From Candidatus Woesearchaeota archaeon (GTDB taxonomy: Archaea > Nanobdellota > Nanobdellia > Woesearchaeales > UBA9642), in NCBI GenBank assembly GCA_003599145.1, contig QZIT01000005.1, forward strand, positions 512,330 to 576,329: 64,000 nt of DNA, written 5' to 3'. Every line of letters begins with the position of its first letter. Position 1 is the stretch's first letter. The translations under genes and the position numbers were made by a program. Below are positions 6,978 to 61,967 of this stretch, piece by piece. The notes under the pieces are model-generated. The model saw only the letters and a program-made list of their open reading frames with translations, did no database searches and was not told the origin of the DNA.

Positions 6978-7294
6978 AGTATTTTGTTATTTTGATTATT
7001 TTACTCACAGCACTCCAAGCCTGTGAAAATAACCTCGATGAAAAAACAGTGCAAAGAGTGGATGTATTGTATGAGCACACCGTCTTGATGAAACAGTTGG
7101 GAACACCAAAACAACTAGAACGAATAGGTTTAAATGCAGACTACATATTGGACAGTTCTGGATTGGCACCTGAAGACAAAATAAATGCACTAGAAAACGC
7201 GTATAATATGCCTTCAAGCGGAAACTATAAAGAAAGGATAATAAAATTAGAAGAAAAAATGAGCATCATGATGCAAAATTGGGGTGTAGAATGA
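6956..7294 (+). CDS. small lipoprotein (lipobox LQAC)
   Basis: 112 aa; hydrophobic signal ending in Cys; overlaps neighbours by 22 and 16 nt, consistent with operon. Confidence 0.45.
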
Positions 7295-24041: not shown

Positions 24042-24098
24042 CTTGTTTATTATGACAGAATATCCTTATAAAAGTATTGTTTTAACCAGAAAATAGGT

Positions 24099-24199
24099 GC
24101 GGGGGAGAGGATTTGAACCCCTGAACCCACTAAGGGACTAGATTCCTCATCAGTGGAACTTGAGTCTAGCGCATTTGACCAGACTTTGCATACCCCCGC
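24099..24199 (-). tRNA. tRNA-Leu (anticodon CAA) with 15-nt intron between positions 37/38
   Basis: Reverse complement folds as GCGGGGG acceptor stem/CCCCCGC, 3-bp D-stem with UGG D-loop, anticodon stem CUAGA/UCUAG, loop CUCAAG + intron UUCCACUGAUGAGGA (plus coords 24144..24158), long variable stem-loop CCCUUAGUGGG, T-loop GGGGUUCAAAUCCUC; mature length 86 nt, no encoded CCA. Confidence 0.8.
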
Positions 24200-25582: not shown

Positions 25583-27226
25583 TTGGTTTTCATGAAAAAA
25601 AGCATTTTCCTGTTGCTCTTGTTGATAATGCCTGTAGCAATGGCAGCACACATCAATGAAGTCATGTACAACCCATCAGGGGACGATAATAATAATGAAT
25701 TTGTAGAGATATTTGGAACAGACAATCTTTCAGGGTTCACTATAGGCGATAGCAATGCAAATGACAGTTTCGTGCTTTTGCAGCATGCTGATGGAAATTT
25801 CAGCTTGGTTGTTGAAGATGGCTTTAATTTTACAGGACTCAACTGCAGCATTTACAGCACTGGAGCAACTATAGGCGATAATCTAAACAACAATAATGAC
25901 GGCGTATTTCTTTATGAGCAGGAATTGATGGTGGACACTTTTTCTTACGACGGAAGCCTTGCAAACGGCAACGGAAAAAGCCTGAGTTTTATAGAAAATG
26001 AATGGAAAGAATCCTTGGCAATAGGAGGAACCCCTTGCAAAGAGAATACACTTGAAAACAGCCACATCAACAACACGAATCAGACCGCAAATGGCACGAT
26101 GAACAGTACCATCAATGATAGCATTAACCAATCCATAAATATCAGCTTGAATGTTACACTGAATGAAACCTTCAACAATACTGCAAACACAACCATCAAC
26201 AACACACAAAACATAACTATCAACATCACCATAAACACCACCCAAAATAACACGATGCATTCGTGCAACATCTCTATCTGGATAGAAACAGAAAAAAACA
26301 TCTATGAAAACAAAGAGACCGTTGCTTTTTACAACAAGCTTTCCAACAAATCAATAGACTTTGAAATAGAGTACTGGATTGAAGATGCCTTTGGGAATGT
26401 CATCAAGAAAAAAACAGTAACGCAAAACACAGACAAGAAGAGCTACACTCCAGATATCGAAGAGCACGATCTCGGACTCGTCATCAAAAGCAGATTGAAC
26501 GCGACGTCGTGCAGCAACGTTCAGCAAAATGACGCTGAAAAAGCAATCATAGTGCGCAAACCCGATTATCAACCCATTGTGTGTAATGCAACCCCCCATG
26601 TCACCTGCCCCATTTGCCCTACGGGTGAAAGGCAACAAAGATACATCACGTCCTTTTACACGAGGGCAAAGAAAGCAGGAATGATAAATATCTATGCTAA
26701 CATACAAGCAAACGGCAATGTTGATGTCGTTTTGTATACGGGGAATGAAAGCAGAAAGTTTGAAAAGCTCTTTAACGGTTCAGAAACACTGGACTTTTCA
26801 GTAAATAGCAAAGCGGGAAAAAATTATTATTTTCTTGAAGTGCAAAAGGACAACCAGACGCTTGACTTCAAGCAATTAATAGTATCCTTTCCTGAAAACA
26901 ATGCCAGTGCTCTTATCGAGCGTGCACCTATGGGCATATCAGAAAACAGGCAAAACAACCAATCTCATCTTATTACGGGAAGCGTTATCTATAGCTCAAG
27001 CAACGCAAAATTAAGAAACTATTTAAAATACGGGCTAATTGTCATAGGTATTGCAGGCGTGATTGTCTATGCCAAACATAAACATCAAAGAAAAGATAGA
27101 AAATGGATGGGTAAGAAGCAATATCATCTTCGAGGTAGTTGGCAATCCAAAAGAACACGTGGCAAAAACCCTGCAAGGGTATATCGAAAATTTGAAGAAA
27201 AACAAGGGCATCATTGTCCTGCATGA
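25583..27226 (+). CDS. secreted lamin-tail-domain (LTD) surface glycoprotein with C-terminal TM anchor
   Basis: 547 aa; signal peptide, INEVMYNPSGDDNNNEFVEIFGT LTD signature, long N-x-S/T sequon-rich low-complexity segment, C-terminal helix YGLIVIGIAGVIVY then basic tail. Confidence 0.65.
   Translation: MVFMKKSIFLLLLLIMPVAMAAHINEVMYNPSGDDNNNEFVEIFGTDNLSGFTIGDSNANDSFVLLQHADGNFSLVVEDGFNFTGLNCSIYSTGATIGDNLNNNNDGVFLYEQELMVDTFSYDGSLANGNGKSLSFIENEWKESLAIGGTPCKENTLENSHINNTNQTANGTMNSTINDSINQSINISLNVTLNETFNNTANTTINNTQNITINITINTTQNNTMHSCNISIWIETEKNIYENKETVAFYNKLSNKSIDFEIEYWIEDAFGNVIKKKTVTQNTDKKSYTPDIEEHDLGLVIKSRLNATSCSNVQQNDAEKAIIVRKPDYQPIVCNATPHVTCPICPTGERQQRYITSFYTRAKKAGMINIYANIQANGNVDVVLYTGNESRKFEKLFNGSETLDFSVNSKAGKNYYFLEVQKDNQTLDFKQLIVSFPENNASALIERAPMGISENRQNNQSHLITGSVIYSSSNAKLRNYLKYGLIVIGIAGVIVYAKHKHQRKDRKWMGKKQYHLRGSWQSKRTRGKNPARVYRKFEEKQGHHCPA
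26030..26260 (+). repeat. low-complexity Asn/Thr/Ile-rich (N-glycosylation sequon) coding segment
   Basis: NNTNQTANGTMNSTINDSINQSINISLNVTLNETFNNTANTTINNTQNITINITINTTQNNT. Confidence 0.6.
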
Positions 27227-30702: not shown

Positions 30703-33147
30703 ATGGATGATAATGCAAAGCATAGTGCGAAAAATCACGAGCAAAATAGCAGGATTATTCCCCAAGTTATTGAAGATGAGATGAAAAAGGCATATCTAGA
30801 TTATGCCATGTCTGTTATTGTGGGAAGGGCATTGCCTGATGTGAGAGACGGATTAAAACCAGTCCATAGAAGGATTCTTTACGGCATGAGCGATTTGGGA
30901 TTGCAAAGCTCTAAAACATTTAAAAAATGCGCAAGAATAGTAGGAGAAATCTTAGGAAAATATCATCCGCATGGTGATGTCGCTGTTTATGATTCCTTGG
31001 TCAGAATGGCGCAGGATTTTTCTCTGCGATATCCTCTAGTGCACGGTCAGGGAAATTTTGGTTCTATAGATGGAGACCCTCCTGCAGCAATGAGGTATAC
31101 CGAAGCAAAGTTAACCAAATTGAGTGAAGAAATTTTGGAAGACTTAGAAAAAGAAACAGTAGACTTTGTTCCTAATTTTGATGATTCCTTAAAAGAACCA
31201 ACAGTCTTACCATCGAAGATTCCTAATCTTTTGATTAACGGAAGCTCGGGCATTGCCGTAGGCATGGCAACCAATATACCACCCCATAACATGACAGAAG
31301 TCTGCAGTGCAGTTATTGCATTGATCCGCAATCCAGATATGTCACTATCAGAATTATTAACCTACGTTAAAGGCCCTGATTTTCCTACTGGGGCAGAAAT
31401 TGCAGGCAGAAGCGGCATCATAAAAGCGTATGGAACAGGACACGGCATTATCACGGTAAAAGCAAAGATGCACGTAGAGGATAAAAAAGGAAGAAAAGTC
31501 ATCATCGTTACAGAAATTCCCTATCAGCTCAATAAATCTTTATTAATAGAGCAAATTGCAGAGCTTGTAAAAGATAAAAAAATTCCGGACATCAGCGATT
31601 TAAGAGATGAAAGCGCGAAAAAAGGAGTACGCATTGTTATAGAATTAAAAAAAGACGCAAATGCAGAAGTAGTCCAGAATTTACTGTACACCCATTCAAA
31701 ACTGCAATCAAACTTTAGCATCATTTTTCTCGCCTTAGTCAACAACGAGCCGAAAGTGCTCCCTTTGAAAGATTGCTTGGTACATTTCCTGCATCACCGG
31801 CAATCTGTTGTAAGAAAAAGAACAGAATATGATTTGAAAAAGGCAAAAGAAAGAGCACATCTTCTCGAAGGGTTATTAATTGCCCTTCACCATATCGATC
31901 CTGTTATTGCATTGATTAAAAAATCTGCAAACGCCGACGAAGCAAAAACAGGATTGATAAAAGTATATGCGCTGACAGAAATTCAAAGCCAGGCAATTTT
32001 AGATATGAGACTGCAAAGGCTTGCTGTTTTAGAGCAGGAAAAAATCAAAACAGAGCATACAGATTTACTCGTCCAGATAAAAAGCTATCAGGAAATCTTG
32101 GCAGATGAACAGAAAATACTGGGCATTATCAAATCAGAATTAGAAGAAATACGGCAAAAATATGGAGACAACAGACTCACCAGCATCTCTGACAGCGAAG
32201 AACTCTTAGATATGGAAGATTTAATTGCTGATGAACCTGTTGTAGTTACCGTTACTCGCTCAGGATATATCAAAAGAATGCTCTTGGAAACCTATAAAGT
32301 GCAGAAGAGAGGTGGAAAGGGAGTAACAGGAGCTGAAACAAAAGAAGAAGACCAAGTTGAGCAGTTATTTGTAAGCAACAATCATGCGTATTTACTCGTG
32401 TTTACCAATACAGGACAGATGCATTGGCTGAAGGTTTATCAAATTCCAGAAGCAGGAAGATATGCCATGGGAAAAGCCATTGTGAATCTGTTAGCATTAA
32501 AAGATGAAAAAATAAAAACAATTATTCCTGTTAAAGAATTTGATGACAAACATTTTTTGGTGTTAGTAACCAAAAAAGGACTGATTAAGAAAACAAATTT
32601 GTCTTCCTATGCAAGACCAAGAAAAGGAGGCATTATTGGCATCGATATTCAGGAAAATGATGCGCTGGTTAATGCATTATTAACGGATGGCACTAAACAA
32701 ATTTTAATTGCCACTAAAAATGGACTCGCAGTGAAGTTTGAAGAATCTGATGTTAGAGCAGTGGGAAGAAATGCAAAAGGAGTTACAGGAGTAAGGTTAA
32801 AAGATCACGATGAAGTTATGGGAATGGTTATTGCAGATGACCAGAAAAAATTATTGACCATTACAGAGAACGGCTACGGAAAACGAACCATGATTTCAGA
32901 ATACCGCCTGATTAATAGAGGAGGAACTGGAGTTATTAACATTCAGTGCACCGAAAGAAACGGAAAAGTAGCTGCAATCAAAGAAGTCAATGATGTCGAT
33001 GAACTGATGTTTATCAGCAAAAAAGGCATTATTATCAGAACGCTTGCAAGCCACATTTCTGTTATTGGAAGAAACACGCAAGGAGTTAGGTTGATGAAGT
33101 TACAAGCAGACGATAAAGTTGTTGCTGCTGCAAAGATTGTCAACTAA
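30703..33147 (+). CDS. gyrA: DNA gyrase subunit A
   Basis: 814 aa; [28 protein letters not shown] active-site region, C-terminal beta-pinwheel repeats; GAGGAG SD. Confidence 0.92.
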
Positions 33148-34370
33148 GCGCATAACTGAGAAACCCACTCACTGTATTTCGAATAGTACATTCTCACAAG
33201 CGCTTGCTTTTCTGCATCAGAAGTTATTTGCGATGGCTTTGGCCTATTTAATGCCCATCGGTGCAAATCCGCCCCCCAAATAAAGCCTGCGCCAAAAGCA
33301 ACTTTTGCAAGCAATCTTCCGGGATAAAGATGACCGCCCACATGTAACTCATCTTGAGCAACCATATAGGTTCCCAAAGAATTGTTGCCGTATTTCTTTA
33401 TTCCTTCTGCATAGACTTGTTCAGGGGCAAAAGGCGTTCTTTTTCTTACTGCGTCAACAATTCTCCAATTTGCCTGATGAGGGTCTATCATCATTTGCGA
33501 GTATTCAGGACTTGATTTGTCAATATGTTCTTGCTCTACAATCTTTTCAAAAGCTTCTGTCATCATTCTCACTGCTGGTTTAAAGACAACCTGTCCATCC
33601 ATGTGAAAATCAGGCCTCTTTACCTGTGCTTCATGCCCGCCATAAGTCAAGTTTCCATCGACGCTAGAAAACTGAGGTCCTACTCCTGATTTCCACCAAA
33701 GATTAGGTCCTAAAGAACCGTCTGCATTAAGGTAACATCCCAAGAATCCGTATTTTTTTTCTAAAACCGTTTGGTCAAGTGAAAATTGCAATACTGCAGC
33801 GCCAACACCATCAGACAAGAGAATGCATGTTGCCCTGTCTTTATAATTTAAAACATGTGATAAAGTATCTCCTGCAAGAACCAGCACTTTAAAGTTTAAA
33901 ACATCGTGAGGAATTTCCTCTTCAGGATTTCTCATTAGGTGTGCATAAAGTTTTCCTGCGAGCGCATTATAACCTGCGCTTTCTGCAATAATGCCTCCTG
34001 TACAACCTCCGTTTTGGTCGTGTGCAGGACATTCTGCTCCCAATAAATACTGGACAATGGTTGCGTTATCAGGAACTGCAAATGTGCCTGATTTATGATT
34101 TGCAAAAATAATCAACCCTATATCTTTGGCAGTGAGACCTGCACTCTTTAATGCCACATGGCCTGCTACAGCTCCTAAAACAGGCAGAGGTTCATACTGA
34201 GTGCTTATAGCTCGCTCGCTAATTCCTGTTCGTTCAATGATCCAATCATTACTGGTATCGACCATTTTTTCTAAATCAGGATTAGAAAGTCTATGGGGTG
34301 GAACCGCGCTTCCTGTGCCAGAAATAATAATTCTAGGTAGTTGTTGAGTGTACACCATAGCAAACCTCAA
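33144..34370 (-). CDS. 3-oxoacyl-ACP synthase III (FabH)-like thiolase-fold condensing enzyme, extended form
   Basis: 408 aa; [14 protein letters not shown] (FabH HQAN-RI motif), active-site Cys region, GxGF C-terminus; 4-nt overlap with gyrA stop. Confidence 0.7.
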
Positions 34371-52477: not shown

Positions 52478-52585
52478 ACAAACAGTAAACAACACTTCTT
52501 TTTATAGGTTTTGGAAATAGGGGCTGTGAAGATGCACAGGACAAGAACACAAAACTGTTTTAAAGGACATCTGCTTTCAAACATC

Positions 52586-53428
52586 ATGCTCTCAGTAACC
52601 AACCTTGCAACAGCGTTGTACTGCAAAAGAAAGCTCTTTATCGAAAAAGTTCTTCGTTTAAAAAAGATACCAAAGGAATCTCTAGCCAAAGGCAAAGTTA
52701 GACATGCAGCTTACGAGCTGGTAAACAAAGAGGACGAGAGTATTGTCAGAACTATCAGAAAAAAAACAGAGTTTCCAGAATTATTGCTATTTTATAAGAA
52801 GAAACACCTGCAATGCCTGCAAAATGCACTCCTTCAACATAAAGGAGAGCTGAAGGAAGTCAACCTTGCACTTCCAGACGTTTTTAAGCAAAGCTGGCCA
52901 TCCCTCTATCGGGAAACGAAAGAGCGAGCATTCCATGTATTTTCGTTCATGGAAAAGCATCAAGTTTATGGTGAGGAGTTATGGCAATTACTGACTCCAA
53001 AAATAGATTCTGAAGTAAAAATAGTCTCTGAAGAGCTCCTGTTAACAGGAATTATAGATCAAGTATGGCACTATGAAGATGAAACCATTCCTTATGAGCT
53101 TAAAACAGGTAGTGCACCATTAAAAGGCGTTTGGCCAAGCCACAGTATTCAAATAGGAAGCTATATTTTAATGCTCCAAAACATCCAGGAAAACGCCAAA
53201 AAAGGCTATGTAAAGTATCTTGACATCCAGGAATCCCGAGAAGTATTTTTAAATCCTTTCTTAGAGGATAAAATTCTTGCAACAAGGGACGCCGTTGTTA
53301 CGATGATAGAGACCCGTGAATTGCCAGATCGCACTTCCAACAAAAAAAAGTGCGATTCCTGCGAATTCAAGGCGCAGTGCTACGATGAAAAAGTTATGGA
53401 TGCTGAGATGAAAAAGCTGCAGAATTAA
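52586..53428 (+). CDS. Cas4-like/RecB-family PD-(D/E)xK exonuclease with 4-Cys cluster (no CRISPR context)
   Basis: N-terminal Cys (ALYCKRK), GIIDQVW (D), ELKTG (ExK), C-terminal CDSCEFKAQC. Confidence 0.55.
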   Translation: MLSVTNLATALYCKRKLFIEKVLRLKKIPKESLAKGKVRHAAYELVNKEDESIVRTIRKKTEFPELLLFYKKKHLQCLQNALLQHKGELKEVNLALPDVFKQSWPSLYRETKERAFHVFSFMEKHQVYGEELWQLLTPKIDSEVKIVSEELLLTGIIDQVWHYEDETIPYELKTGSAPLKGVWPSHSIQIGSYILMLQNIQENAKKGYVKYLDIQESREVFLNPFLEDKILATRDAVVTMIETRELPDRTSNKKKCDSCEFKAQCYDEKVMDAEMKKLQN

Positions 53429-54773: not shown

Positions 54774-54805
54774 GTTTTCTAGAAAAAGGATAAAAAAAGA
54801 AAAAA

Positions 54806-55765
54806 TTAGCCTGCACTGACATCTTTAATAATGATGTCTTTCTCTATGTATTCTCCGTACAGGTAATCTAGCGTTACCAAGAATACAGGCTCATAGATCT
54901 TTCCTTCGTTTCCCATGGTTACCGTACAGGTAACTGTTCTTGGAGCGCCGTTGTATAAATTAACATAACCAGCAACTCCTCCTTCTGAAAGGGCAGGGCA
55001 GTTAACGGTTGCATCAGTATCTTCTGGCAAGCTCACCGTAACGTAAACAATGTTCTTATCGACATTCGTTACAGAATCGTCACAGAACCTCTGGCTGCCT
55101 TTCTTGTAGATTTGCCCTGTTCCGACGTGTGATATAACCAAAAGCAAAGATGCCTTATTTTGCCCCGCGGGATTTTGCGATAAGGAGGTTATTTGAACAG
55201 GGGCTCCTGAATTCTTAGGGCTTTTTACTTCATTGAGCTTGCAAATCTTATCTGCATCCTTTGAGGTTTCGATGACGTTTTCTTTAATGCATATTTTTGT
55301 CGACACCCTAGTCTGATAGTCGTAGCAGGCTTCAGCTCTTAATGTAAAGAAATCATTTCCAAAAATATCCTGCTGGTAATTGAAGTTTTCAAAGTTTATG
55401 CTGGTAATGTCTCCATCAATAATGGTTCCTTCGAAGTTTTTTCGCTTGCCCTTGACATCGACATCTATAGCCTTTGAGGTTTCAGGATTTCCAAAATACG
55501 CAGAATTCAGCCCTATAAGCGACACTTTTCCATAATCTCTTGAAGCAACAAAGTCATACTCTCCTTTGTTTTCAATAATGACACCTATGCCAAAAGGATA
55601 TTGACCTGCATCAAATATTTCTTCAGGCGGATTTCCTTCCTGAAAGGAAAGCGCTAATCCTGTATTGCCTCCTGCATACGGGTCAAAAGCACTTGTGACC
55701 TGTTTTTGACCACAGCTAACCACAAAAAAAGCAAGTAATAAGACTGCAAAGAGTATTTTTCTCAT
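54806..55765 (-). CDS. lipoprotein, paralog family member with shared Cys-rich C-terminal domain
   Basis: 319 aa; lipobox VVSCGQ; ACYDYQTRVSTKICI...CKLNEVKSPKNSGAPVQITSL. Confidence 0.55.
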   Translation of the reverse strand: MRKILFAVLLLAFFVVSCGQKQVTSAFDPYAGGNTGLALSFQEGNPPEEIFDAGQYPFGIGVIIENKGEYDFVASRDYGKVSLIGLNSAYFGNPETSKAIDVDVKGKRKNFEGTIIDGDITSINFENFNYQQDIFGNDFFTLRAEACYDYQTRVSTKICIKENVIETSKDADKICKLNEVKSPKNSGAPVQITSLSQNPAGQNKASLLLVISHVGTGQIYKKGSQRFCDDSVTNVDKNIVYVTVSLPEDTDATVNCPALSEGGVAGYVNLYNGAPRTVTCTVTMGNEGKIYEPVFLVTLDYLYGEYIEKDIIIKDVSAG

Positions 55766-55829
55766 TTTGAAACCTCCTGTTTTTCCATACGCTTATTAAC
55801 GGGATGAACCCCTTTATATTATTTTCCTT

Positions 55830-57164
55830 TTATGTCACTCTTTTAATCGTGACTGATTTCTGAACAGTTTGAGAGTAGCCATAGGCCATCTCGATAATCA
55901 AATTGTCGGGATATGCTGTATTTGGAGCATTATCTGGGATGTCGTACTCGCAGGTAACCATGCCCTGTCCGTTAGTCAATCTTACCAATCTATTAGGATT
56001 GCACTTCATGCTATAAGGGTCTCCTGTTCCCAGGTTGATATAATTTATCCAAACGAGGTTCAAGTCTTTCTCTGTTACCCTGTCAGGATTCCAAGGGTTG
56101 CATTTTTGCAATGCAAATGGACTATAGACAGTACCTTTGCCTACATTTCTAATGTAAATCTTAAAAAGTATTTTTCTAGGCGTATTTTCCTGCTCTATTC
56201 TGGTTATGGCAACAGGAGCTCCCTGGCTTTTCCATGATTGCGCTCTTACTGTGCAAACTTTTCTGCCTCCATCATAAGGATACTTGTCTATGCAAACAGA
56301 GGGAGTTGCGTGGGTAACATATGCATAACATGCTGTTGCAGTGATGGGCTGTATGGTTTCGTCTAAACCTTGAGGCCATTGCATGACCGTCGCCTTGAAG
56401 TTCAAATAATCTTTTTCTCCACCAGGATAATAATGATTATCGCCTAAAAGCAAAAAGGGAATCCCATATCTCTTATCTGGAAACTGTATTCCTACACCCT
56501 GATAAAACTGACTTAATTGGGTCATGGCCATTCTACCGTAATAGGCATTTTCAACACTCACTGCCTGCAGGTCAAGCGCAGAGTCAAAATTGCAGTGTAT
56601 CTTATTGACGTTTTGATCAAGATTTTCACAGTTAAGATTGAGAGTTCCAAAAAGCTGGGTGTCTTCATCAAACCAATCTTTTCCTGTAATGCTATCAAGC
56701 AGCTCTCCAAGGTTTCCATCGACATGAAGATTTCCAAATTCACCAAAAACTCCTCCTCCAACACCATAGCCTTGTCCAAAAAAGCAGTCAAAGGCAATAT
56801 TTTCATTGCCTGAAACGCTACCTGCAGCAATATCGCAGGAATTTATACCGTAGAGATTCTGCTCTTGCGCAAACGGAGGAATAGATAGAATGCTTGGATT
56901 ATATCCTGAAATGTAAACAGAGCCCATAGCATAATTCGCTCCTTGATTGTCTAATTTAACATTGATATCAAACGTATTATCATTAACATTGCCATCTGAA
57001 TAGAAATAGACTCTTGAAGGGGGCGTATTATCTTCAAAGGTCATCCTAACTCCTTCTGTGCCTACATAATACTTTTCTGTTTTTGGATTATTGGGATTGC
57101 TTACGAAACTGCAAGAAGCCAAAAAAAGCGATAAAAGAATAAAGACTGGTAATAATTTTCTCAT
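55830..57164 (-). CDS. lipoprotein, paralog family member
   Basis: 444 aa; lipobox LASCS; ACYAYVTHATPSVCIDK...CTVRAQSWKSQGAPVAITRIEQ. Confidence 0.55.
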   Translation of the reverse strand: MRKLLPVFILLSLFLASCSFVSNPNNPKTEKYYVGTEGVRMTFEDNTPPSRVYFYSDGNVNDNTFDINVKLDNQGANYAMGSVYISGYNPSILSIPPFAQEQNLYGINSCDIAAGSVSGNENIAFDCFFGQGYGVGGGVFGEFGNLHVDGNLGELLDSITGKDWFDEDTQLFGTLNLNCENLDQNVNKIHCNFDSALDLQAVSVENAYYGRMAMTQLSQFYQGVGIQFPDKRYGIPFLLLGDNHYYPGGEKDYLNFKATVMQWPQGLDETIQPITATACYAYVTHATPSVCIDKYPYDGGRKVCTVRAQSWKSQGAPVAITRIEQENTPRKILFKIYIRNVGKGTVYSPFALQKCNPWNPDRVTEKDLNLVWINYINLGTGDPYSMKCNPNRLVRLTNGQGMVTCEYDIPDNAPNTAYPDNLIIEMAYGYSQTVQKSVTIKRVT

Positions 57165-57233
57165 GCTTCAATTTTTAGCTTTTGTATATATAAATATTAC
57201 TGTTTGCAGTATAGTTTGCAATACGCAAAACTG

Positions 57234-58154
57234 TCAGCGAACAATCTGAACATCTTTGCTGGAAGTCTGAAAGTACAAGTAATCTGTTTGGATGGTCAAA
57301 ATATCTGGTTGGCTGATGAACGTTAGCTCCAAAGGATCACCTATCAATTTGCAGTTCACGGTGCCTTCATTATTCATAAAATTCACAGGATTGGGATTAC
57401 AATCTAATGGTCTGTTGAAGAGACTTGCATTAATAATCAATTTACCCCATAGCTGAGTTGGAGACTCTTTAAGCACACACTGTTGCTGTATAGATTGCTC
57501 TGTTTTCTGAATCATAGTTCCCCCACCTACATTTTTAAGCGTGATGGCAAAAGAAGGCGTCACTCTATTATCTGAAACAGTCATTCTTGGCTCTACTCTC
57601 GTTATGGCAACAGGAGCTCCCTGATTTGCAAAGGTAAGCAGTTTTGCGCTGCAACTTTTTTTTCTTGCATCAAGATTAAAAGGATCTTTGTCTATGCAGA
57701 CATCTGCTGTTAATTTTGTTGTATAAGGATAGCAAACATTCATCAGTATTTTAGAAGACGGACTTTCCCTTTGACCTTCTATGGTCCTAGCATGGAACAA
57801 GTAACTATACGTTTCTAAAGAACCTTCTTGATTAAAGTAATGCTTACCAGGTAGCTCAATTTCTGTTGGTTCTTCAGAACCATTCAAGGTGAAGTAATAG
57901 CTATCATAGATGAAATAGAGATAGCCCTCTGTTTTTTCATCTTTGGATATATTAAAAGCCCCTGCATTTTGAACTTTGACAATAACATTAAAATCTTCTT
58001 CTTGAAATATTTTTGCAGGAGGCGCATTTTTCATAAACTCTGTTTTTAATCCATAAGGCCCTTTGTAAGGATTAAAAGACGATGGCTGCTTGGTTGTTGA
58101 AGTGCAAGCAGTAAGCAGCAACAAGGCAACCATGGCGATGAATACATATTTCAT
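57234..58154 (-). CDS. lipoprotein, paralog family member
   Basis: 306 aa; lipobox LTACTS; VCYPYTTKLTADVCIDK...CSAKLLTFANQGAPVAITRVEP. Confidence 0.55.
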   Translation of the reverse strand: MKYVFIAMVALLLLTACTSTTKQPSSFNPYKGPYGLKTEFMKNAPPAKIFQEEDFNVIVKVQNAGAFNISKDEKTEGYLYFIYDSYYFTLNGSEEPTEIELPGKHYFNQEGSLETYSYLFHARTIEGQRESPSSKILMNVCYPYTTKLTADVCIDKDPFNLDARKKSCSAKLLTFANQGAPVAITRVEPRMTVSDNRVTPSFAITLKNVGGGTMIQKTEQSIQQQCVLKESPTQLWGKLIINASLFNRPLDCNPNPVNFMNNEGTVNCKLIGDPLELTFISQPDILTIQTDYLYFQTSSKDVQIVR

Positions 58155-60682
58155 CTTGGAGCACCTATCTGTACAGATTTTGTTTTCGAAAGTTCATAAT
58201 CATAAGACGCTATAACGATAAACGTATTTACAGATATTCCTCCATCCCCAAGTAAATCATCTGCATAGGCTGTTTTATTTTCAGGATTAAGAACATACTC
58301 AGAAACAGCACAGGAGTAATATTCGTTAAGGAAGGCATTTTTATCAAAAACTTCAACGCCTGAAGGATTATAACTAAAGCGATAGATGCTGTGAATAGGT
58401 TTAGAGCCTCCTGGCAAATAGTGCGAGGGTATTGGCCCTTTTTTCAACCCCTGACCGGTAACAGACTCCATAATCATGCCATTGCCTGTGTAAAGGGCAA
58501 CATGACCAACACCATCTCCTTGAGGATTGGTAAAAACAATATCGCCTGGTTTTGCATTTGCATTTATTTCTGTTAAAGAACAATCTGGACTGGAAGGAGT
58601 TATCTGTTTATCTCCGCATATAAGTTTTGCATTCATGCTTCTCGCCAATCTTAAATAACCTGAAGCAGACAGCCGTTCTGAGAATCCAGGAACGCCTGCA
58701 TGACTCATAACCCAATAGGTCCATCCAGAGCAATCAAAACCTTCTTCCGGGCTTTCCCCTCCATATTGATAACAAGTATCTTCTCCTGTAGGACCGTATT
58801 TTTCATAATAGTAATTTGCAATGCCCATAACACATTGCGAGGTTTTGCAAGGAACTATGGGTTCTTCCGGCGTAATGCAAAATGTTGGTGTCTTTTGAAT
58901 AATAAACGTATCTGATGTATTTTCCATTTTTAATCTGCATCTGACGGTTAAATACTCTGAGTTCACATTTGCAGGTATATCAACAAACGTGTAATTGGTG
59001 TACTTTCCATCTTCTGCAACGTGAACATTCTGAAGGTTTTTAGGATCTTTGGTATTGCAGGTTGTTAAATCAAGCTGCAAAGGTTTGGGAATTCTAAACG
59101 TCAACTGGTTAATTTTAACAACTTTTCCCAAAGGATCACTGTTTTGAATGGTTATGCCAAAAACGGGCAGGATAGGATTTTCTTTGCTCACTGCCATTGG
59201 CTGTTCAGGAGGATTTCTGATATCAACTAATCCTAATTTTACAGGTCCATTGGTATAGACTGCTTCGGGATATCTTGCTATTTGATATAAGCTTACAGGG
59301 TCTTTATTTTCAGAGCGCAAATTTCTCAATAAATCTCTATCCATAAACGTGTAGGTAACATAGCCCCATGTCTGAAAGTTAAAGGTTGACTTGAATGTAA
59401 ACTGATGGCTTTGTTTAGTAAAATCAATAGTTGTTGGACCTAAAGCAGGTCCGATGTTGCATTGCAAATAATAAGTTTCTAACTCAGAAATGCCGAATCC
59501 TGCAGGGTCAACTAACCCTTCATAATCATCCAGAAAACACTTATTCGTTACTTTTGCTTCATCAACAAATGTTCTTCCTGTTACTGTAATATACCCCCCT
59601 ATAGGGTCTCCGTATTCAAAATAAGTATAATAAGGCTCTATCTCTCCAAACGTAACTCCTAACTGTACACCTTTATTTTTCTCAACTTCTGCTGCGTAAT
59701 AGGGATCTGCTGCAACTCTTATTTGATAGGTTACGTTTCCTGGTATTCCTAAAGCCACATTCATCATTCTTTTTGCAGCTTCCTTGATGACACTCCACAC
59801 TTTCTGCAAAGGAGACATGACATTTCCATCAGGTCCTGCTGCTGTTATCTGCCCAAAGTCAATAAAGCCAACAACTAAAAAGGAAACAAGAATAACGACC
59901 CAAATTGCTTTGATCGTTCCAAAGAAATAATCGAAGTGTTTTGCAGTATAAACAGGCCATGCAGGAACCAATACTAAAAACAGATTGAACAAATCTCCGT
60001 AGCTTAATCCTCCAAATGCATCTCCTGTAGGAATAACGGTTCTCAGTAAAGGAATGAAAATGCTTGCTGCAGAAATTGCAAAATATCCGAAAATGTGCCA
60101 TGCTCCGCCAAAATTTCCAGGCTGCCTAAAAACAAAAAACCAAGCAAGGATTGCAAAAATCAGATAAACAATATATGCATGATCATACAAGGCACCTGTT
60201 CTTTGAAATCCATAGCCAAAAGCATCAATCAAATGCCAAATTAACGTTAACCAAAAAAACCATTTGTACGCATTGTTTGTCCCTTGATTTTTTAACCAGC
60301 TTGCTGTTCCTCCAATACCTTGAGCTGTTTTTTGCACTGCACCTTTGCCCATTTGATAACCAACAGCTCCAACTGTTGCTCCTACTGCTGCAGTTGCCAA
60401 GGTTCCTCTACCCATAGCTTTTGTTCCTTTCCAAAGTCCTTTTCCTGTTGCCTTCATTCCTTTTTTAGTGTAATTACCATATCTTGCAAATCGTTCACGC
60501 ATACTTTCCTTTAACTGTTCTTCCACTTGCTCTTCTGACGGTTGCTGAGTTTGTTGAATAGGCTGTTCTATCCTGCTTTGCTTAGCAGGTTCTTCGTCCA
60601 TCTGAGAACTCGCCCTTCTATCTTTAATTTTAATCCGCGAGGCGTCTCTTTCCTGCTCATTGTAAGGGCTAACGTTAACCAT
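58151..60682 (-). CDS. large polytopic membrane protein with extracellular NlpC/P60-family cysteine peptidase domain
   Basis: 843 aa; cytoplasmic Gln/Gly-rich N-terminus, ~6 TM helices, extracellular region, FDCSGWTYWV (catalytic Cys) ... GHVALYTGNG (His) approx. 58376..58780; 4-nt overlap with downstream lipoprotein gene. Confidence 0.6.
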   Translation of the reverse strand: MVNVSPYNEQERDASRIKIKDRRASSQMDEEPAKQSRIEQPIQQTQQPSEEQVEEQLKESMRERFARYGNYTKKGMKATGKGLWKGTKAMGRGTLATAAVGATVGAVGYQMGKGAVQKTAQGIGGTASWLKNQGTNNAYKWFFWLTLIWHLIDAFGYGFQRTGALYDHAYIVYLIFAILAWFFVFRQPGNFGGAWHIFGYFAISAASIFIPLLRTVIPTGDAFGGLSYGDLFNLFLVLVPAWPVYTAKHFDYFFGTIKAIWVVILVSFLVVGFIDFGQITAAGPDGNVMSPLQKVWSVIKEAAKRMMNVALGIPGNVTYQIRVAADPYYAAEVEKNKGVQLGVTFGEIEPYYTYFEYGDPIGGYITVTGRTFVDEAKVTNKCFLDDYEGLVDPAGFGISELETYYLQCNIGPALGPTTIDFTKQSHQFTFKSTFNFQTWGYVTYTFMDRDLLRNLRSENKDPVSLYQIARYPEAVYTNGPVKLGLVDIRNPPEQPMAVSKENPILPVFGITIQNSDPLGKVVKINQLTFRIPKPLQLDLTTCNTKDPKNLQNVHVAEDGKYTNYTFVDIPANVNSEYLTVRCRLKMENTSDTFIIQKTPTFCITPEEPIVPCKTSQCVMGIANYYYEKYGPTGEDTCYQYGGESPEEGFDCSGWTYWVMSHAGVPGFSERLSASGYLRLARSMNAKLICGDKQITPSSPDCSLTEINANAKPGDIVFTNPQGDGVGHVALYTGNGMIMESVTGQGLKKGPIPSHYLPGGSKPIHSIYRFSYNPSGVEVFDKNAFLNEYYSCAVSEYVLNPENKTAYADDLLGDGGISVNTFIVIASYDYELSKTKSVQIGAPR

Positions 60683-60722
60683 TGCTTACTTTGAAGCTTG
60701 GTGGTATATAAATATTTAGAAA

Positions 60723-61919
60723 TTAGTCGTTCTCTTCAATGAAAACTTTTAAATCAACAATATCCAGCGTTGTTCTTGGCTCTAACTCGATGGCGTTGGT
60801 GCCGTGCCTTAGATAATTGTCAACGTTCTTCTCGTACTGTATTTTATCGGTGTCAAAGGTGAAGGAAATGCCGTTAAAGGTTATAGTTCCCTGCTTGTTA
60901 TCCCTGTCATTGACAAACCGCAGGCGTATGGTTGCATTATACTTGCTTTCCAAAACATCATCATCAGGGTCATCTTCATCAATAGTCTGAAAAAACTCAT
61001 CATCGACTTCAAAATAGTAAATAGGATATAACTGCTCCTTCATGCTCGTCCTCACTCTCAAATTATCAACCAAGTAAGAACCCCTGTCTGTCTTGAATTG
61101 CAAAATGTTGTCTCCTTGATAAATATCGTCAGGATTAAGCAAAACATCATTTTTTACGCCGCAATCTGCGATGGCCGAGTACACAATCTTATGGTTGAGC
61201 CATATCAGCAAGGTTCCTACTGCTTTGCTATCGCAGCGAGGGAAAAAAGTGAGGCTTCCTCTTTCGAGGTTTTGTTTTTCCACATCAGAAACAAAAAAGT
61301 GTTGTTCGCTTGCACTGGTCGTTACATCTTTAAAGTTCGCCGTTACCTTAATATTTTCAAAAGAATATTCGTTAATTCTCCAAAATGCCCATCCTGGACT
61401 GGAAACTCTAAACTCTAACGTATTTTTTCCCTTAATAAGGTCTGAAGGCAAAGGTATCGGTTCAGGGCTTCCTTTTTCCACTTCTCCATTAAAAATCTCG
61501 TTTCCATTCAAAAACAAGATAAGTCTTCCATCTGCAGCCTCGAGATTAAAGGACAATAAAAAGTCATTTAAGTTTTCCCCGGAGTCAAAAGACATGGTTG
61601 CGAAGGATTTTTCAAAAACACCATTTCTTGAATAGAGAGACTTCACTTCCTTCAGCACTTCTCCAGACTCTGTTGAGTACATCCTGAAGGATGGCAATTC
61701 ATGGCTTCGTTCGTCAAATTTCAAATAGTCAATTCTTCCAGGATGCTCCAGTAAAAGAGTCTTATTCAAGTTTGCATCACTGTTTCCATCGTCGTCAGTG
61801 CTGTTTTCACCTAACAAATCAGTCCTCACATCAGGAGGGAGGAACAGAATGTAAAGAATAATAGCGAGTGTTATTAAAGCAACCATAATTGCTGCATTCG
61901 AACCAGACTGTGCTTTCAT
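60723..61919 (-). CDS. membrane-anchored (N-terminal signal-anchor) secreted acidic protein, first gene of surface cluster
   Basis: 398 aa; MKAQSGSNAAIMVALITLAIILYILF, Asp-rich extracellular domain. Confidence 0.45.
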   Translation of the reverse strand: MKAQSGSNAAIMVALITLAIILYILFLPPDVRTDLLGENSTDDDGNSDANLNKTLLLEHPGRIDYLKFDERSHELPSFRMYSTESGEVLKEVKSLYSRNGVFEKSFATMSFDSGENLNDFLLSFNLEAADGRLILFLNGNEIFNGEVEKGSPEPIPLPSDLIKGKNTLEFRVSSPGWAFWRINEYSFENIKVTANFKDVTTSASEQHFFVSDVEKQNLERGSLTFFPRCDSKAVGTLLIWLNHKIVYSAIADCGVKNDVLLNPDDIYQGDNILQFKTDRGSYLVDNLRVRTSMKEQLYPIYYFEVDDEFFQTIDEDDPDDDVLESKYNATIRLRFVNDRDNKQGTITFNGISFTFDTDKIQYEKNVDNYLRHGTNAIELEPRTTLDIVDLKVFIEEND

Positions 61920-61967
61920 ATCGTTACATTAATAAGCTTTATATATATAAATTTTGTTGTTACTGTT

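What the first reader, a model, noticed from the sequence alone, without database searches (positions are those of the whole stretch)
54806..61919. Five-gene co-directional cell-surface cluster: NlpC/P60 polytopic membrane protein plus three paralogous lipoproteins and a membrane-anchored secreted protein
Five minus-strand genes with short spacers (one 4-nt overlap) appear to form an operon. Gene 1 is a signal-anchored acidic secreted protein. Gene 2 is an 843-aa protein with a cytoplasmic Gln/Gly-rich head, about six TM helices and a large extracellular part. That extracellular part ends in an NlpC/P60-type Cys/His peptidase domain: FDCSGW...GHVALY. Genes 3-5 are lipoproteins with divergent N-terminal halves. 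They share one C-terminal module: CY-Y-T...C-DK...C...QGAPV(A/Q)ITR. NlpC/P60 enzymes cut peptidoglycan stem peptides, and archaea lack murein. A membrane-embedded archaeal version with dedicated lipoprotein partners therefore suggests an apparatus that remodels or attacks a bacterial (or pseudomurein) wall. That would fit an episymbiotic or predatory small-genome archaeon. I do not recognise this gene combination as a described system
Basis: partly seen in the sequence, partly recalled or inferred. Interest (0 to 1): 0.78.

Follow-up and report, generated by a model that had tools for sequence, protein, structure and literature searches.

The report
Woesearchaeal surface gene cluster with wall-cutting enzyme
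Five neighbouring genes of an uncultured Woesearchaeota archaeon encode a conserved, undescribed set of cell-surface proteins, and different lineages have attached different bacterial-cell-wall-cutting enzymes to it (here an NlpC/P60 peptidase), which makes it a concrete candidate for how these tiny archaea engage bacteria.

Summary
The five minus-strand genes are real, and the NlpC/P60 call is correct (Pfam E 6.9e-14, Cys651 and His727 present). The window comes from a Candidatus Woesearchaeota MAG.

Two things change the picture.

First, the cluster is a vertically inherited module. The order W1, W2, W3, W4, W5 recurs in about 80 species-level Woesearchaeota/Nanoarchaeota genomes, often between Pelota and RFC. 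None of the core families matches Pfam, NCBIfam or PDB sequences.
- W1 has a prepilin-like N-terminus and three repeats.
- W2 is a membrane protein with five predicted TM helices.
- W3-W5 are three anciently diverged lipoproteins, each built of two beta-sandwiches.

Second, the NlpC/P60 domain is not conserved. It is a roughly 214-aa insertion just before the last beta-strand of W2, and the nearest relatives lack it. Other lineages carry SLT, Peptidase_M23, Amidase_2, Muramidase, Lysozyme_like or another NlpC/P60 at the W2 C-terminus. Two lineages carry SLT on the W3 lipoprotein instead. In total, 11 of about 67 loci have such an enzyme.

Repeated, independent recruitment of murein hydrolases to one surface module in an organism with no known murein argues that the module contacts bacterial walls. 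The core function is unknown. No assembly, activity or host has been shown.

The parts
60723..61919 (-). W1: acidic 398-aa surface protein. It has a prepilin-like N-terminus (MKA|QSGSNAA followed by a 20-residue hydrophobic helix ending in YILFLPP) and then three homologous repeats.
   Evidence: ORF. Orthologues are 31-51% identical in 80 loci. [KR][GA]Q lies 19-20 residues before YILF in 51 of 82 distinct N-termini, and a looser form occurs in 29 more. Internal repeats by hhalign: D1-D2 96% probability, D2-D3 91%. No Pfam, NCBIfam, PHROGs or PDB sequence match.
61839..61919 (-). W1 residues 1-27: class III (prepilin-like) signal-like segment.
   Evidence: It is the only ORF in the window with this pattern.
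58151..60682 (-). W2: 843-aa polytopic membrane scaffold protein that carries the NlpC/P60 insertion.
   Evidence: ORF. Identical to NCBI hypothetical protein C4573_04900 of a Candidatus Woesearchaeota archaeon. The core family has 1153 clusters at 50% identity with E<=1e-3. No recurrent Pfam family in 60 core members.
60281..60682 (-). W2 residues 1-134: low-complexity Gln/Glu/Lys/Gly-rich N-terminal head, predicted cytoplasmic.
   Evidence: Read directly from the sequence. Length and sequence vary widely among orthologues. There is no signal peptide, and the stretch before TM1 is Lys/Arg-rich. The cytoplasmic location is inferred.
59864..60280 (-). W2 residues 135-273: five predicted transmembrane helices, with a conserved P-x-W-P-[IV]-Y motif in TM4.
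   Evidence: Helices 135-156, 166-186, 192-216, 228-249 and 252-273 in the AF2 model, which has low confidence here. Hydropathy analysis. P240, W242 and P243 are conserved in the alignments.
58901..59725 (-). W2 residues 320-594: conserved Cys-containing beta-rich ectodomain, apparently two beta-sandwiches.
58259..58900 (-). W2 residues about 595-808: lineage-specific insertion holding the NlpC/P60 peptidase domain. The Pfam match is residues 637-752 (nt 58427-58774). Cys651 and His727 are present, and Glu739 is the probable third residue.
   Evidence: Pfam. Weak PDB sequence matches to Tn916-like cell-wall hydrolases. PHROGs tail-lysin families. The insertion is absent from all aligned homologues. 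GC3 is 0.29, the same as the rest of the gene.
58154..58258 (-). W2 residues 809-843: the final conserved beta-strand of the ectodomain (TF-V-A-YDY-L-K--SV), which resumes after the insertion.
   Evidence: Aligns to the C-terminus of every homologue.
57234..58154 (-). W3: 306-aa predicted lipoprotein (lipobox LTAC), first of three paralogues. Its start overlaps the W2 stop by 4 nt.
   Evidence: The first lipoprotein position is W3-like in 44 of 46 three-lipoprotein loci. Orthologues in L067 and L076 carry a C-terminal SLT domain.
55830..57164 (-). W4: 444-aa predicted lipoprotein (lipobox LASC), second paralogue, with a large insertion in the N-terminal domain.
   Evidence: The second position is W4-like in 36 of 46 loci.
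54806..55765 (-). W5: 319-aa predicted lipoprotein (lipobox VVSC), third paralogue, built of two tandem Ig-like beta-sandwich domains.
61920..61967 (-). 48-nt divergent intergenic region shared with Pelota. It holds a TTTATATATATAAA TATA-like box about 20 nt upstream of the W1 start. Similar TTTATATA boxes precede W2 (60683-60722) and W4 (57165-57233).
   Evidence: Sequence read directly. Promoter function is inferred.
54774..54805 (-). Oligo-T tract (TTTTTTCTTTTTTTATCCTTTTTC) after W5. It is the only strong T-run among the cluster's intergenic gaps and is a likely archaeal terminator.
   Evidence: Sequence read directly. Terminator function is inferred.

Best explanation
The five genes encode a lineage-specific cell-surface assembly of Woesearchaeota. 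In this organism it displays a peptidoglycan endopeptidase for contact-dependent action on a bacterial cell wall.

Shown:
- W2 is a membrane protein with five predicted TM helices whose beta-sandwich ectodomain lies C-terminal to the helices.
- W3, W4 and W5 are three anciently diverged paralogous proteins with conserved lipoboxes, each predicted to be two Ig-like beta-sandwiches.
- W1 has a conserved prepilin-like N-terminus and three repeats.
- The gene order is fixed across the clade.
- Murein hydrolases of at least six Pfam families have been fused to W2, or to W3, in different lineages.

Inferred:
- The five ectodomains assemble into one hetero-oligomeric structure on the outer face of the membrane.
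- The variable N-terminal head of W2 is cytoplasmic.
- The NlpC/P60 domain projects from a loop of the distal W2 sandwich and uses Cys651, His727 and probably Glu739 to cut stem peptides in the sacculus of a bacterium touching the archaeon. This would locally thin the wall for tight attachment, uptake of material or lysis.
- In hydrolase-free lineages the same module would act as the attachment or envelope structure alone.
For: Conserved module:
- The same order W1-W2-W3-W4-W5 occurs in L001 and L003-L006 and in essentially all of the 80 GTDB species loci that are long enough.
- Where the W2 profile failed, a large polytopic membrane ORF still occupies the slot.
- The lipoproteins show position-specific orthology: 44/46, 36/46 and 44/44.

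Chromosomal and vertically inherited:
- Pelota lies divergently upstream in 30 of 71 loci, and the RFC small subunit lies downstream in 33 of 45.
- No relatives were found in IMG/VR.

Surface location:
- Conserved lipobox Cys and conserved Cys patterns.
- High-confidence beta-sandwich model of W5.
- Five TM helices followed by the ectodomain in W2.

Link to peptidoglycan:
- NLPC_P60 in W2 here.
- SLT in the W2 of L015, L019, L029 and L062, and M23 in L074.
- Among 29 extended family representatives: SLT 9, Amidase_2 2, NLPC_P60 2, Muramidase 1, M23 1, Lysozyme_like 1, SLT_2 1.
- M23 on the divergent W2-slot proteins of L013 and L086, and SLT on the W3-position lipoproteins of L067 and L076.
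- Across all ORFs of the 86 loci, hydrolase hits fall only inside cluster genes.
- Carriers are scattered on a W1 tree, and the window's nearest relatives L007 and L009 have none, which implies repeated gain or loss.
- Catalytic motifs are intact: ES in the SLT domains, and HxxxD and HxH in M23, read from the sequences.

No own substrate is known. In archaea, pseudomurein is reported only from Methanobacteriales and Methanopyrales (PMC11915815, PMC10117817).

Membrane tethering, rather than free secretion, points to action on contact (inference).
Against: - No experiment or structure shows that the five proteins interact. Co-assembly rests only on synteny and paralogy.
- About 80-85% of clusters carry no hydrolase (60 non-extended W2 representatives have none; 11 of about 67 loci do). 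Peptidoglycan cleavage therefore cannot be the core function.
- No peptidoglycan-binding domain (LysM, SH3, PG_binding) was reported by Pfam in the proteins and family members scanned.
- The AF2 model of W2 is poor (pLDDT 50, below 50 across the NlpC/P60 region), so the fold and the position of the domain are not confirmed structurally.
- No host is known for any Woesearchaeota.
- The hydrolase could serve scavenging of wall debris or antagonism rather than attachment.
Confidence: 0.5

Rival explanations
1. General envelope scaffold. W1-W5 form a housekeeping surface layer or S-layer-anchoring structure needed for cell integrity or shape. Murein hydrolases are fused to it only because it is a convenient surface anchor, for scavenging peptidoglycan debris as food or for killing competitors. 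The module itself has no role in host contact.
For: - The cluster is near-universal in the clade and sits among housekeeping genes.
- Most copies lack any hydrolase.
- Archaeal peptidoglycan hydrolases that kill bacteria are documented (PMC12352652).
Against: - S-layers are normally built from one or two very abundant proteins, not five distinct ones kept in fixed order (general knowledge).
- W4 and W5 have no N-glycosylation sequons and W3 has three.
- Tethering a lytic enzyme to the producer's membrane is a poor design for scavenging or for killing at a distance.
- Hydrolases were recruited to two different members of this one cluster, and to no neighbouring gene.
Confidence: 0.27
2. Type IV pilus-related adhesion or uptake module. 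W1 is a large pilin-like adhesin processed by a prepilin peptidase and presented on, or at the base of, a pilus. W2-W5 are its membrane platform and accessory proteins.
For: The W1 N-terminus, [KR][GA]Q followed by about 20 hydrophobic residues, is conserved at fixed spacing. Type IV pili drive episymbiosis in Saccharibacteria (PMC9894109).
Against: - No assembly ATPase, PilC/TadC-type platform protein or prepilin peptidase appears in the cluster or in the annotated flanks of related loci.
- W2 does not match T2SSF or any other Pfam family.
- Many archaeal non-pilus surface proteins also carry class III signals (general knowledge).
- No other pilin-like ORF occurs in the window.
Confidence: 0.12
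3. Conjugation-like or type IV secretion-like transfer apparatus of a monoderm, with W2 as a VirB6-like channel protein fused to a VirB1/CwlT-like hydrolase.
For: The best PDB sequence hits of the NlpC/P60 part are Tn916-like conjugative-transposon wall hydrolases (E 0.002-0.017). Monoderm T4SSs combine a polytopic VirB6-like protein with NlpC/P60 or SLT hydrolases (general knowledge; PMC12102498 for Patescibacteria).
Against: - No VirB4 or VirD4 ATPase, relaxase or VirB8-like gene lies in or beside the cluster in any annotated locus.
- There is no TrbL/VirB6 Pfam match.
- The location is a fixed chromosomal site between housekeeping genes.
- Nothing was found in viral contigs.
- The PDB hits reflect only the shared enzymatic domain.
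Confidence: 0.04
4. Autolysin. The hydrolase remodels a murein-like wall made by the archaeon itself.
For: In bacteria, membrane-anchored NlpC/P60, SLT and M23 enzymes typically act on the producer's own wall (general knowledge).
Against: - Pseudomurein is reported only from Methanobacteriales and Methanopyrales, and no archaeal murein is known (PMC11915815, PMC10117817).
- A minority of lineages carry a hydrolase, and the enzymes have different bond specificities (glycosidic, amide, peptide), unlike an essential conserved autolysin.
- The library search for Woesearchaeota together with peptidoglycan-biosynthesis terms listed no paper describing such biosynthesis.
Confidence: 0.04

Closest known systems
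NlpC/P60 cell-wall endopeptidases, including phage tail-associated lysins and Tn916-Orf14-like conjugative-element hydrolases
   Same: W2 residues 637-752 match PF00877 above the gathering score, with the catalytic Cys and His. The domain also matches PHROGs tail-lysin families and, weakly, Tn916-like hydrolases in the PDB. As in phage tail lysins, a lytic domain is mounted on a larger structural protein, and different relatives carry different lytic domains.
   Different: The carrier is an archaeal polytopic membrane protein encoded in a conserved chromosomal cluster. The domain is inserted into a loop of a beta-sandwich rather than appended. Identity to any phage homologue is only 29-37%. 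No tail, capsid or conjugation genes are nearby.
[quoted passage not shown] 2021, PMC8204110) and GH23 genes of 'vampiristic' Woesearchaeota (Vigneron et al. 2022, PMC9723730)
   Same: The same clade and the same inference: archaeal surface enzymes aimed at bacterial peptidoglycan, with possible bacterial hosts. Some W2 orthologues carry SLT domains.
   Different: Those reports describe single large SLT proteins of up to 3000 aa, found by annotation. They do not describe the five-gene module, the W2 scaffold, the paralogous lipoproteins, or the interchange of SLT, M23, amidase, muramidase and NlpC/P60. Whether fam00969 overlaps the W2 family was not tested.
Monoderm (Gram-positive or Patescibacteria) type IV secretion: VirB6-like polytopic protein plus a CwlT/PrgK/TraG-type wall hydrolase
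   Same: A polytopic membrane protein with a large extracellular part, associated with NlpC/P60, SLT or muramidase domains that locally open peptidoglycan. One W2 relative (P0131) even has a muramidase + amidase pair, analogous to the two-domain hydrolase CwlT.
   Different: No sequence similarity outside the hydrolase domain. No VirB4 or VirD4 ATPases and no relaxase. Not on a mobile element. The wall to be opened is not the producer's own.
Secreted archaeal peptidoglycan hydrolases that kill bacteria (Woldo and Danwoldo of Halogranum; PMC12352652)
   Same: Archaeal enzymes that act on bacterial murein. That survey found peptidoglycan hydrolases especially prominent and diverse in Nanoarchaeota.
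   Different: Those are soluble, secreted, modular enzymes made of a catalytic domain plus a peptidoglycan-binding domain. Here the enzyme has no recognised binding domain and is fixed to the membrane inside a conserved multi-protein cluster.
Lipid-anchored, Ig-like-domain archaeal S-layer glycoproteins (for example Haloferax volcanii csg, PDB 7ptp)
   Different: No sequence relation. Five distinct proteins rather than one. An N-terminal lipobox rather than a C-terminal archaeosortase anchor. Few or no glycosylation sequons.

Membership tests
NlpC/P60 (PF00877) papain-like cell-wall peptidases | Significant match to the family profile | tested here: met
   E 6.9e-14, 52.1 bits against a gathering score of 23, residues 637-752. 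Several NCBIfam NlpC/P60 models also match, well below their full-length cut-offs.
NlpC/P60 (PF00877) papain-like cell-wall peptidases | Catalytic Cys at the start of a helix (DCSG motif) and catalytic His on a beta-strand | tested here: met
   FDC651SGW aligns to FDCSGL, and GH727VALY aligns to THVGIY, of the Tn916-like hydrolase 9ubf.
NlpC/P60 (PF00877) papain-like cell-wall peptidases | Third polar catalytic residue (His, Glu, Gln or Asn) about 12 residues after the His | tested here: inconclusive
   Glu739 lies at +12 from His727. It occupies the position of His131 of E. coli MepS/Spr in an alignment made from memory, not by a tool.
NlpC/P60 (PF00877) papain-like cell-wall peptidases | Papain-like alpha+beta fold in a structure or a confident model | tested here: inconclusive
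   The AF2 model of W2, built from a 4-sequence alignment, has pLDDT below 50 across most of residues 589-804.
NlpC/P60 (PF00877) papain-like cell-wall peptidases | Hydrolysis of peptidoglycan stem peptides | not testable with these tools
   Needs an enzyme assay on sacculi or muropeptides.
Lipobox lipoproteins (W3, W4, W5) | Sec-type signal peptide ending in [LVI][ASTVI][GAS]C | tested here: met
   LTAC, LASC and VVSC. The Cys is at least 90% conserved in 48 family members and invariant in the 7-sequence alignment.
Lipobox lipoproteins (W3, W4, W5) | Actual lipidation of the Cys (an AliA/AliB-type pathway in archaea, PMC13631571) | not testable with these tools
   Whether this genome encodes such a pathway was not checked.
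Archaeal class III (type IV prepilin-like) signal-peptide proteins (W1) | Short charged N-terminus, [KR][GA] cleavage motif, then a hydrophobic stretch of about 20 residues | tested here: met
   MKA|QSGSNAAIMVALITLAIILYILF in the window. [KR][GA]Q at a fixed distance in 51 of 82 distinct orthologue N-termini, with looser variants in 29.
Archaeal class III (type IV prepilin-like) signal-peptide proteins (W1) | Genetic association with a prepilin peptidase, an assembly ATPase and a PilC/TadC-like platform | tested here: not met
   None lies in the cluster or in the annotated flanks of related loci. The rest of the genome was not examined.
Monoderm type IV secretion or conjugation systems | VirB4-family ATPase and VirB6/TrbL-family membrane protein in the same locus | tested here: not met
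   No such Pfam families appear in W2 or among the neighbouring genes of L001-L006.
Phage or mobile element | Relatives on viral contigs, variable genomic location | tested here: not met
   No W1 relative in IMG/VR. Conserved Pelota and RFC flanks. The GC3 of the insertion equals that of the host gene.
Woesearchaeal/Pacearchaeal large SLT proteins (fam00969, PMC8204110) | SLT domain in a very large extracellular protein | tested here: not met
   The window's W2 has NlpC/P60 and no SLT. Some orthologues have SLT. Identity of the two families was not tested.

The most novel reading that the evidence does not exclude
W1-W5 are the structural genes of a previously unseen host-contact organelle specific to Woesearchaeota: a membrane-embedded, lipoprotein-braced surface complex. 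Its tip enzyme (NlpC/P60, SLT, M23, amidase or muramidase) is exchanged between lineages to match the wall chemistry of different bacterial hosts. That would make these archaea cross-domain episymbionts or predators of bacteria, and the hydrolase type would predict the kind of host.
Probability: 0.3. Interest if true: 0.9.

Novelty: categorically new. Interest (0 to 1): 0.72.

Why it matters
Woesearchaeota are among the most widespread uncultured archaea. Whether they have hosts, and whether those hosts are bacteria, is an open question (PMC8204110). For cultivated DPANN relatives with archaeal hosts, cryo-ET has revealed attachment organelles whose proteins are unknown (PMC11420986).

This cluster gives a concrete, conserved five-protein candidate for the contact machinery. 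It also supplies independent genomic evidence that the machinery meets peptidoglycan: unrelated murein hydrolases were recruited repeatedly to two of its members.

That makes the question testable in several ways:
- express the hydrolase domains and assay them on sacculi of co-occurring bacteria;
- raise antibodies or use proteomics for W1-W5 in enrichments;
- use the type of hydrolase to predict host wall chemistry.

Even if the host-contact reading is wrong, these are five abundant protein families with no Pfam, NCBIfam or PDB sequence match. They define the cell surface of a major archaeal clade.

Tried and rejected
- Exact look-up of W2 in the contig index found nothing.
- A word-indexed search with the W2 alignment returned only two proteins, because low-complexity words filled the candidate list.
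- A BFVD fold search with the lipoprotein model gave TM-scores of 0.31 or less, which are meaningless.
- The afdb50 library was unavailable.
- PDB profile searches with W1, the W2 core and the lipoproteins found nothing but compositional TM matches.
- Weak single hits were treated as noise: Ntox22 in W5, FlgH and LptM in W3/W5 signal peptides, O-antigen_lig in one W2, BcsB in one W1, TrwG in W1.
- The search for a donor of the NlpC/P60 domain among phages gave only 29-37% identity to uncultured human-gut phage records and to Listeria and Brochothrix phages. No donor was identified.
- The enlarged W1 and W3 orthologues tested carry no Pfam domain above threshold; SLT was found only on the W3-position proteins of L067 and L076.
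- Conjugation, phage and autolysin readings were considered and rejected, as set out under the rival explanations.

Full report
OBSERVATION

The five minus-strand ORFs are present exactly as described:
- W1, 60723-61919, 398 aa
- W2, 58151-60682, 843 aa
- W3, 57234-58154, 306 aa
- W4, 55830-57164, 444 aa
- W5, 54806-55765, 319 aa

The spacers are 40, -4, 69 and 64 nt. W2 is identical to the NCBI protein 'hypothetical protein C4573_04900 [Candidatus Woesearchaeota archaeon]', from a 576-kb contig.

The rest of the window is ordinary chromosome. It encodes gyrase A, RNase J, a P-type ATPase, tyrosyl-tRNA synthetase (judged from the translation alone, not tested), a Cas4-like nuclease, a PRC-barrel protein and the RFC small subunit on one side of the cluster, and Pelota and an FmrO-type methyltransferase on the other. 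GC content is uniform at about 38%.

W2 matches Pfam NLPC_P60 at residues 637-752 (E 6.9e-14, above the gathering score). The DC651SG cysteine and GH727V histidine align to a Tn916-like wall hydrolase of known structure. W3, W4 and W5 are paralogues (BLASTP 1e-19, 2e-11, 6e-12) with lipoboxes LTAC, LASC and VVSC.

- The lipoproteins are related along their whole length, not only in a C-terminal module.
- W2 has five predicted TM helices rather than six.
- The NlpC/P60 domain is an insertion, followed by one more conserved strand.
- The W1 anchor is prepilin-like.

THE CLUSTER IS A CONSERVED, VERTICALLY INHERITED MODULE

A homologue of W2 (P0002) lies in another Woesearchaeota MAG in a locus with one-to-one orthologues in the same order: W1 (36% identity), W2 (25%), W3 (30%), W4 (34%), and W5 (42%, plus a duplicate). 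The RFC small-subunit and PRC-barrel genes lie a few genes further downstream, whereas in the window RFC directly abuts W5. Loci found through lipoprotein homologues show the same layout, bracketed by FmrO-Pelota and RFC-PRC.

A scan of one genome per GTDB species with a W1 profile found 118 relatives. I kept 80 loci (L007-L086), and nearly all are titled Woesearchaeota, Nanoarchaeota or Nanoarchaeia. Profile searches over all their ORFs show W1, then W2, then three (sometimes four) lipoproteins, all co-directional, wherever the contig is long enough. In the loci inspected where a full-length ORF could be read but the W2 profile had failed (L013, L031, L033, L050, L086; L036 partly), a large polytopic membrane ORF still fills the slot; in L067, L075 and L076 only fragmented ORFs were seen.

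The three lipoproteins are ancient, position-specific paralogues. The first is W3-like in 44 of 46 three-lipoprotein loci, the second W4-like in 36 of 46, and the third W5-like in 44 of 44. Pelota is the divergent upstream neighbour in 30 of 71 loci, and RFC lies downstream in 33 of 45. No relative occurs in IMG/VR.

TATA-like TTTATATA boxes precede W1, W2 and W4. The only strong oligo-T run follows W5. This fits co-transcription with internal promoters, but that is an inference.

WHAT THE PROTEINS ARE

None of the core families matches Pfam, NCBIfam, PHROGs or PDB sequences.

The W1 family has a conserved N-terminus. [KR][GA]Q lies 19-20 residues before a YILF(L/I)PP motif in 51 of 82 distinct sequences, and looser variants occur in 29 more. 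This is the pattern of an archaeal class III (prepilin-like) signal. Three homologous repeats follow (hhalign 96% and 91%).

W2 consists of:
- a variable, low-complexity N-terminal head;
- five predicted TM helices containing a conserved PxWP(I/V)Y motif;
- a Cys-containing beta-rich ectodomain that is moderately confident in an otherwise poor model.

THE NLPC/P60 DOMAIN IS A LINEAGE-SPECIFIC INSERTION

All five aligned homologues pass directly from about residue 594 of W2 to the final strand (TFxVxAxYDY...). The roughly 214 residues in between exist only in the window's protein. The closest relative, L007 (W1 51% identical), has a W2-slot ORF of 629 codons (stop to stop) without the insertion. 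A phmmer search with the inserted segment hit no ORF in any of the 86 loci.

The GC3 of the insertion (0.29) equals that of the rest of the gene, so the acquisition is not recent. The nearest phage homologues are only 29-37% identical.

OTHER LINEAGES CARRY OTHER MUREIN HYDROLASES IN THE SAME CLUSTER

In the species loci:
- W2 orthologues with C-terminal extensions carry SLT in L015, L019, L029 and L062 (above the gathering score). L057 and L085 are weak in Pfam but are supported by phmmer at 7e-10 and 7e-7.
- L074 carries Peptidase_M23.
- The divergent W2-slot proteins of L013 and L086 also end in M23.
- In L067 and L076 the W3-position lipoprotein ends in an SLT domain (E 1e-21 and 6e-20).

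Among the 150 best W2 representatives, 23 have C-terminal extensions of at least 189 aa. Of 29 extended members scanned, the counts were SLT 9, Amidase_2 2, NLPC_P60 2, Muramidase 1, M23 1, Lysozyme_like 1, SLT_2 1 and PKD 1 (the same member also matched PKD_4). Individual cases include P0131 with Muramidase + Amidase_2, and P0160 with NlpC/P60 appended after the scaffold rather than inserted. Sixty non-extended members have no hydrolase.

Of about 67 loci in which the relevant genes are complete, 11 carry a hydrolase. Across all ORFs of the 86 loci, hydrolase hits fall only within cluster genes. On a W1 neighbour-joining tree the carriers are scattered among non-carriers. Catalytic motifs are intact in the sequences I read: ES in the SLT domains, and HxxxD and HxH in M23.

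INTERPRETATION

Enzymes that cut three different kinds of bond in murein (glycosidic, amide, peptide) have been recruited repeatedly and independently to two different components of one conserved surface module. The clade has no known murein: pseudomurein is confined to Methanobacteriales and Methanopyrales (PMC11915815, PMC10117817). The simplest reading is that the module sits where the archaeon meets bacterial peptidoglycan. Because the enzymes are membrane-tethered, they would act on contact.

Most lineages have no hydrolase, so the core role must be something else. I think the most likely role is attachment, or envelope architecture at the contact site. The fixed set of three paralogous lipoproteins, the W2 base and the prepilin-like W1 suggests a hetero-oligomeric assembly. 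I put about 0.5 on this combined model.

The main rival, at about 0.27, is that the module is a general envelope scaffold and the hydrolases merely use it as an anchor for scavenging or antagonism. Pilus-related (about 0.12), conjugation-like (about 0.04) and autolysin (about 0.04) readings are weaker, for the reasons listed under the rival explanations.

Nothing here demonstrates assembly, enzymatic activity or a host.

COMPARISON WITH WHAT IS KNOWN

The enzymatic domain is an ordinary NlpC/P60. The idea that some Woesearchaeota and Pacearchaeota attack or bind bacterial walls has been published on the basis of large SLT proteins and GH23 genes (PMC8204110, PMC9723730). Secreted archaeal peptidoglycan hydrolases that kill bacteria have been demonstrated in haloarchaea, with Nanoarchaeota noted as rich in such genes (PMC12352652).

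My library searches found no description of the following:
- the five-gene module itself;
- its near-universal, syntenic presence in the clade;
- the W2 scaffold family;
- the three position-specific lipoprotein paralogues;
- the prepilin-like three-repeat protein;
- the interchange of hydrolase 'warheads' on W2 and W3.

Functionally it resembles phage tail lysins and monoderm T4SS hydrolase/VirB6 pairs, in which a lytic domain is mounted on a structural or membrane protein and swapped between relatives. It fails their membership tests: there are no ATPases, no tail or capsid genes, no sequence relation outside the enzyme, and the chromosomal location is fixed.

VERDICT

I rate the module as lying outside any described system, while the NlpC/P60 domain itself is a new member of a known family. 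The interest is high because the module offers a testable molecular handle on whether and how Woesearchaeota interact with bacteria.

Noticed in passing
window 24098-24199 (-): Rfam finds a tRNA (39 bits, 102 nt, full model 1-71) that ARAGORN did not report. The extra length suggests an intron-containing archaeal tRNA.
   Followed up: no
window 30703-33147 (+): A complete bacterial-type DNA gyrase A subunit (DNA_topoisoIV E 8e-167 plus C-terminal beta-propeller repeats) in this archaeal genome.
   Followed up: no
window 33144-34370 (-): A FabH-like protein (ACP_syn_III N- and C-terminal domains). This fits the published note that Woesearchaeota carry bacterial-type fatty-acid synthesis genes (PMC8204110).
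   Followed up: no
window 25583-27226 (+): A 547-aa ORF with no Pfam match at E<=1e-5, another unannotated large protein.
   Followed up: no
window 52511-53428 (+): A stand-alone Cas4-like PD-(D/E)XK nuclease (Cas_Cas4 E 3e-14) between tyrosyl-tRNA synthetase and the PRC-barrel gene. No CRISPR array was noticed nearby.
   Followed up: no
L024-L027, L036-L038, L041, L048, L049, L055, L059-L061, L063, L065, L074, L075, L077, L079, L081 (W1 orthologues): A sub-clade of W1 proteins (about 560-600 aa) has an insertion of about 160 aa at profile position about 312, inside the third repeat. No Pfam match was found for it.
   Followed up: partly
L001 3235-4800; L037 13476-16202; L042 13137-16754: W3-position lipoproteins are often enlarged, to 521, 909 and 1206 aa. 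The L001 protein has a Cys-rich C-terminal extension ending in a poly-Ala/Thr tail. No Pfam domains were detected.
   Followed up: partly
L001 8744-10169; L003 11845-12618; L005 11183-13398: Related loci have a variable set of small secreted or hypothetical genes between the last lipoprotein and RFC. Two of the three L001 proteins have signal peptides and are rich in Gly, Tyr or Asn. The window has none: W5 abuts RFC with a 32-nt gap.
   Followed up: no
L026 (DASPMU010000053.1), L068 (DATILO010000022.1), and many 'uncultured Methanosarcinales archaeon' TPA records (for example L011, L013, L015): Contigs carrying this Woesearchaeota-type cluster are titled Alphaproteobacteria, Binatia or Methanosarcinales. 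These are probably mis-binned contigs or default or mistaken taxonomic labels.
   Followed up: no
L047 1124-3610; P0178: Some W2 orthologues end in PKD domains instead of a hydrolase (below the gathering score in L047). This suggests the C-terminal position also accepts adhesion-type modules.
   Followed up: partly
L036 about 7270-7390: The W2-slot ORF is interrupted by a long poly-Ala translation. This is probably a masked or low-complexity stretch or an assembly artefact.
   Followed up: no
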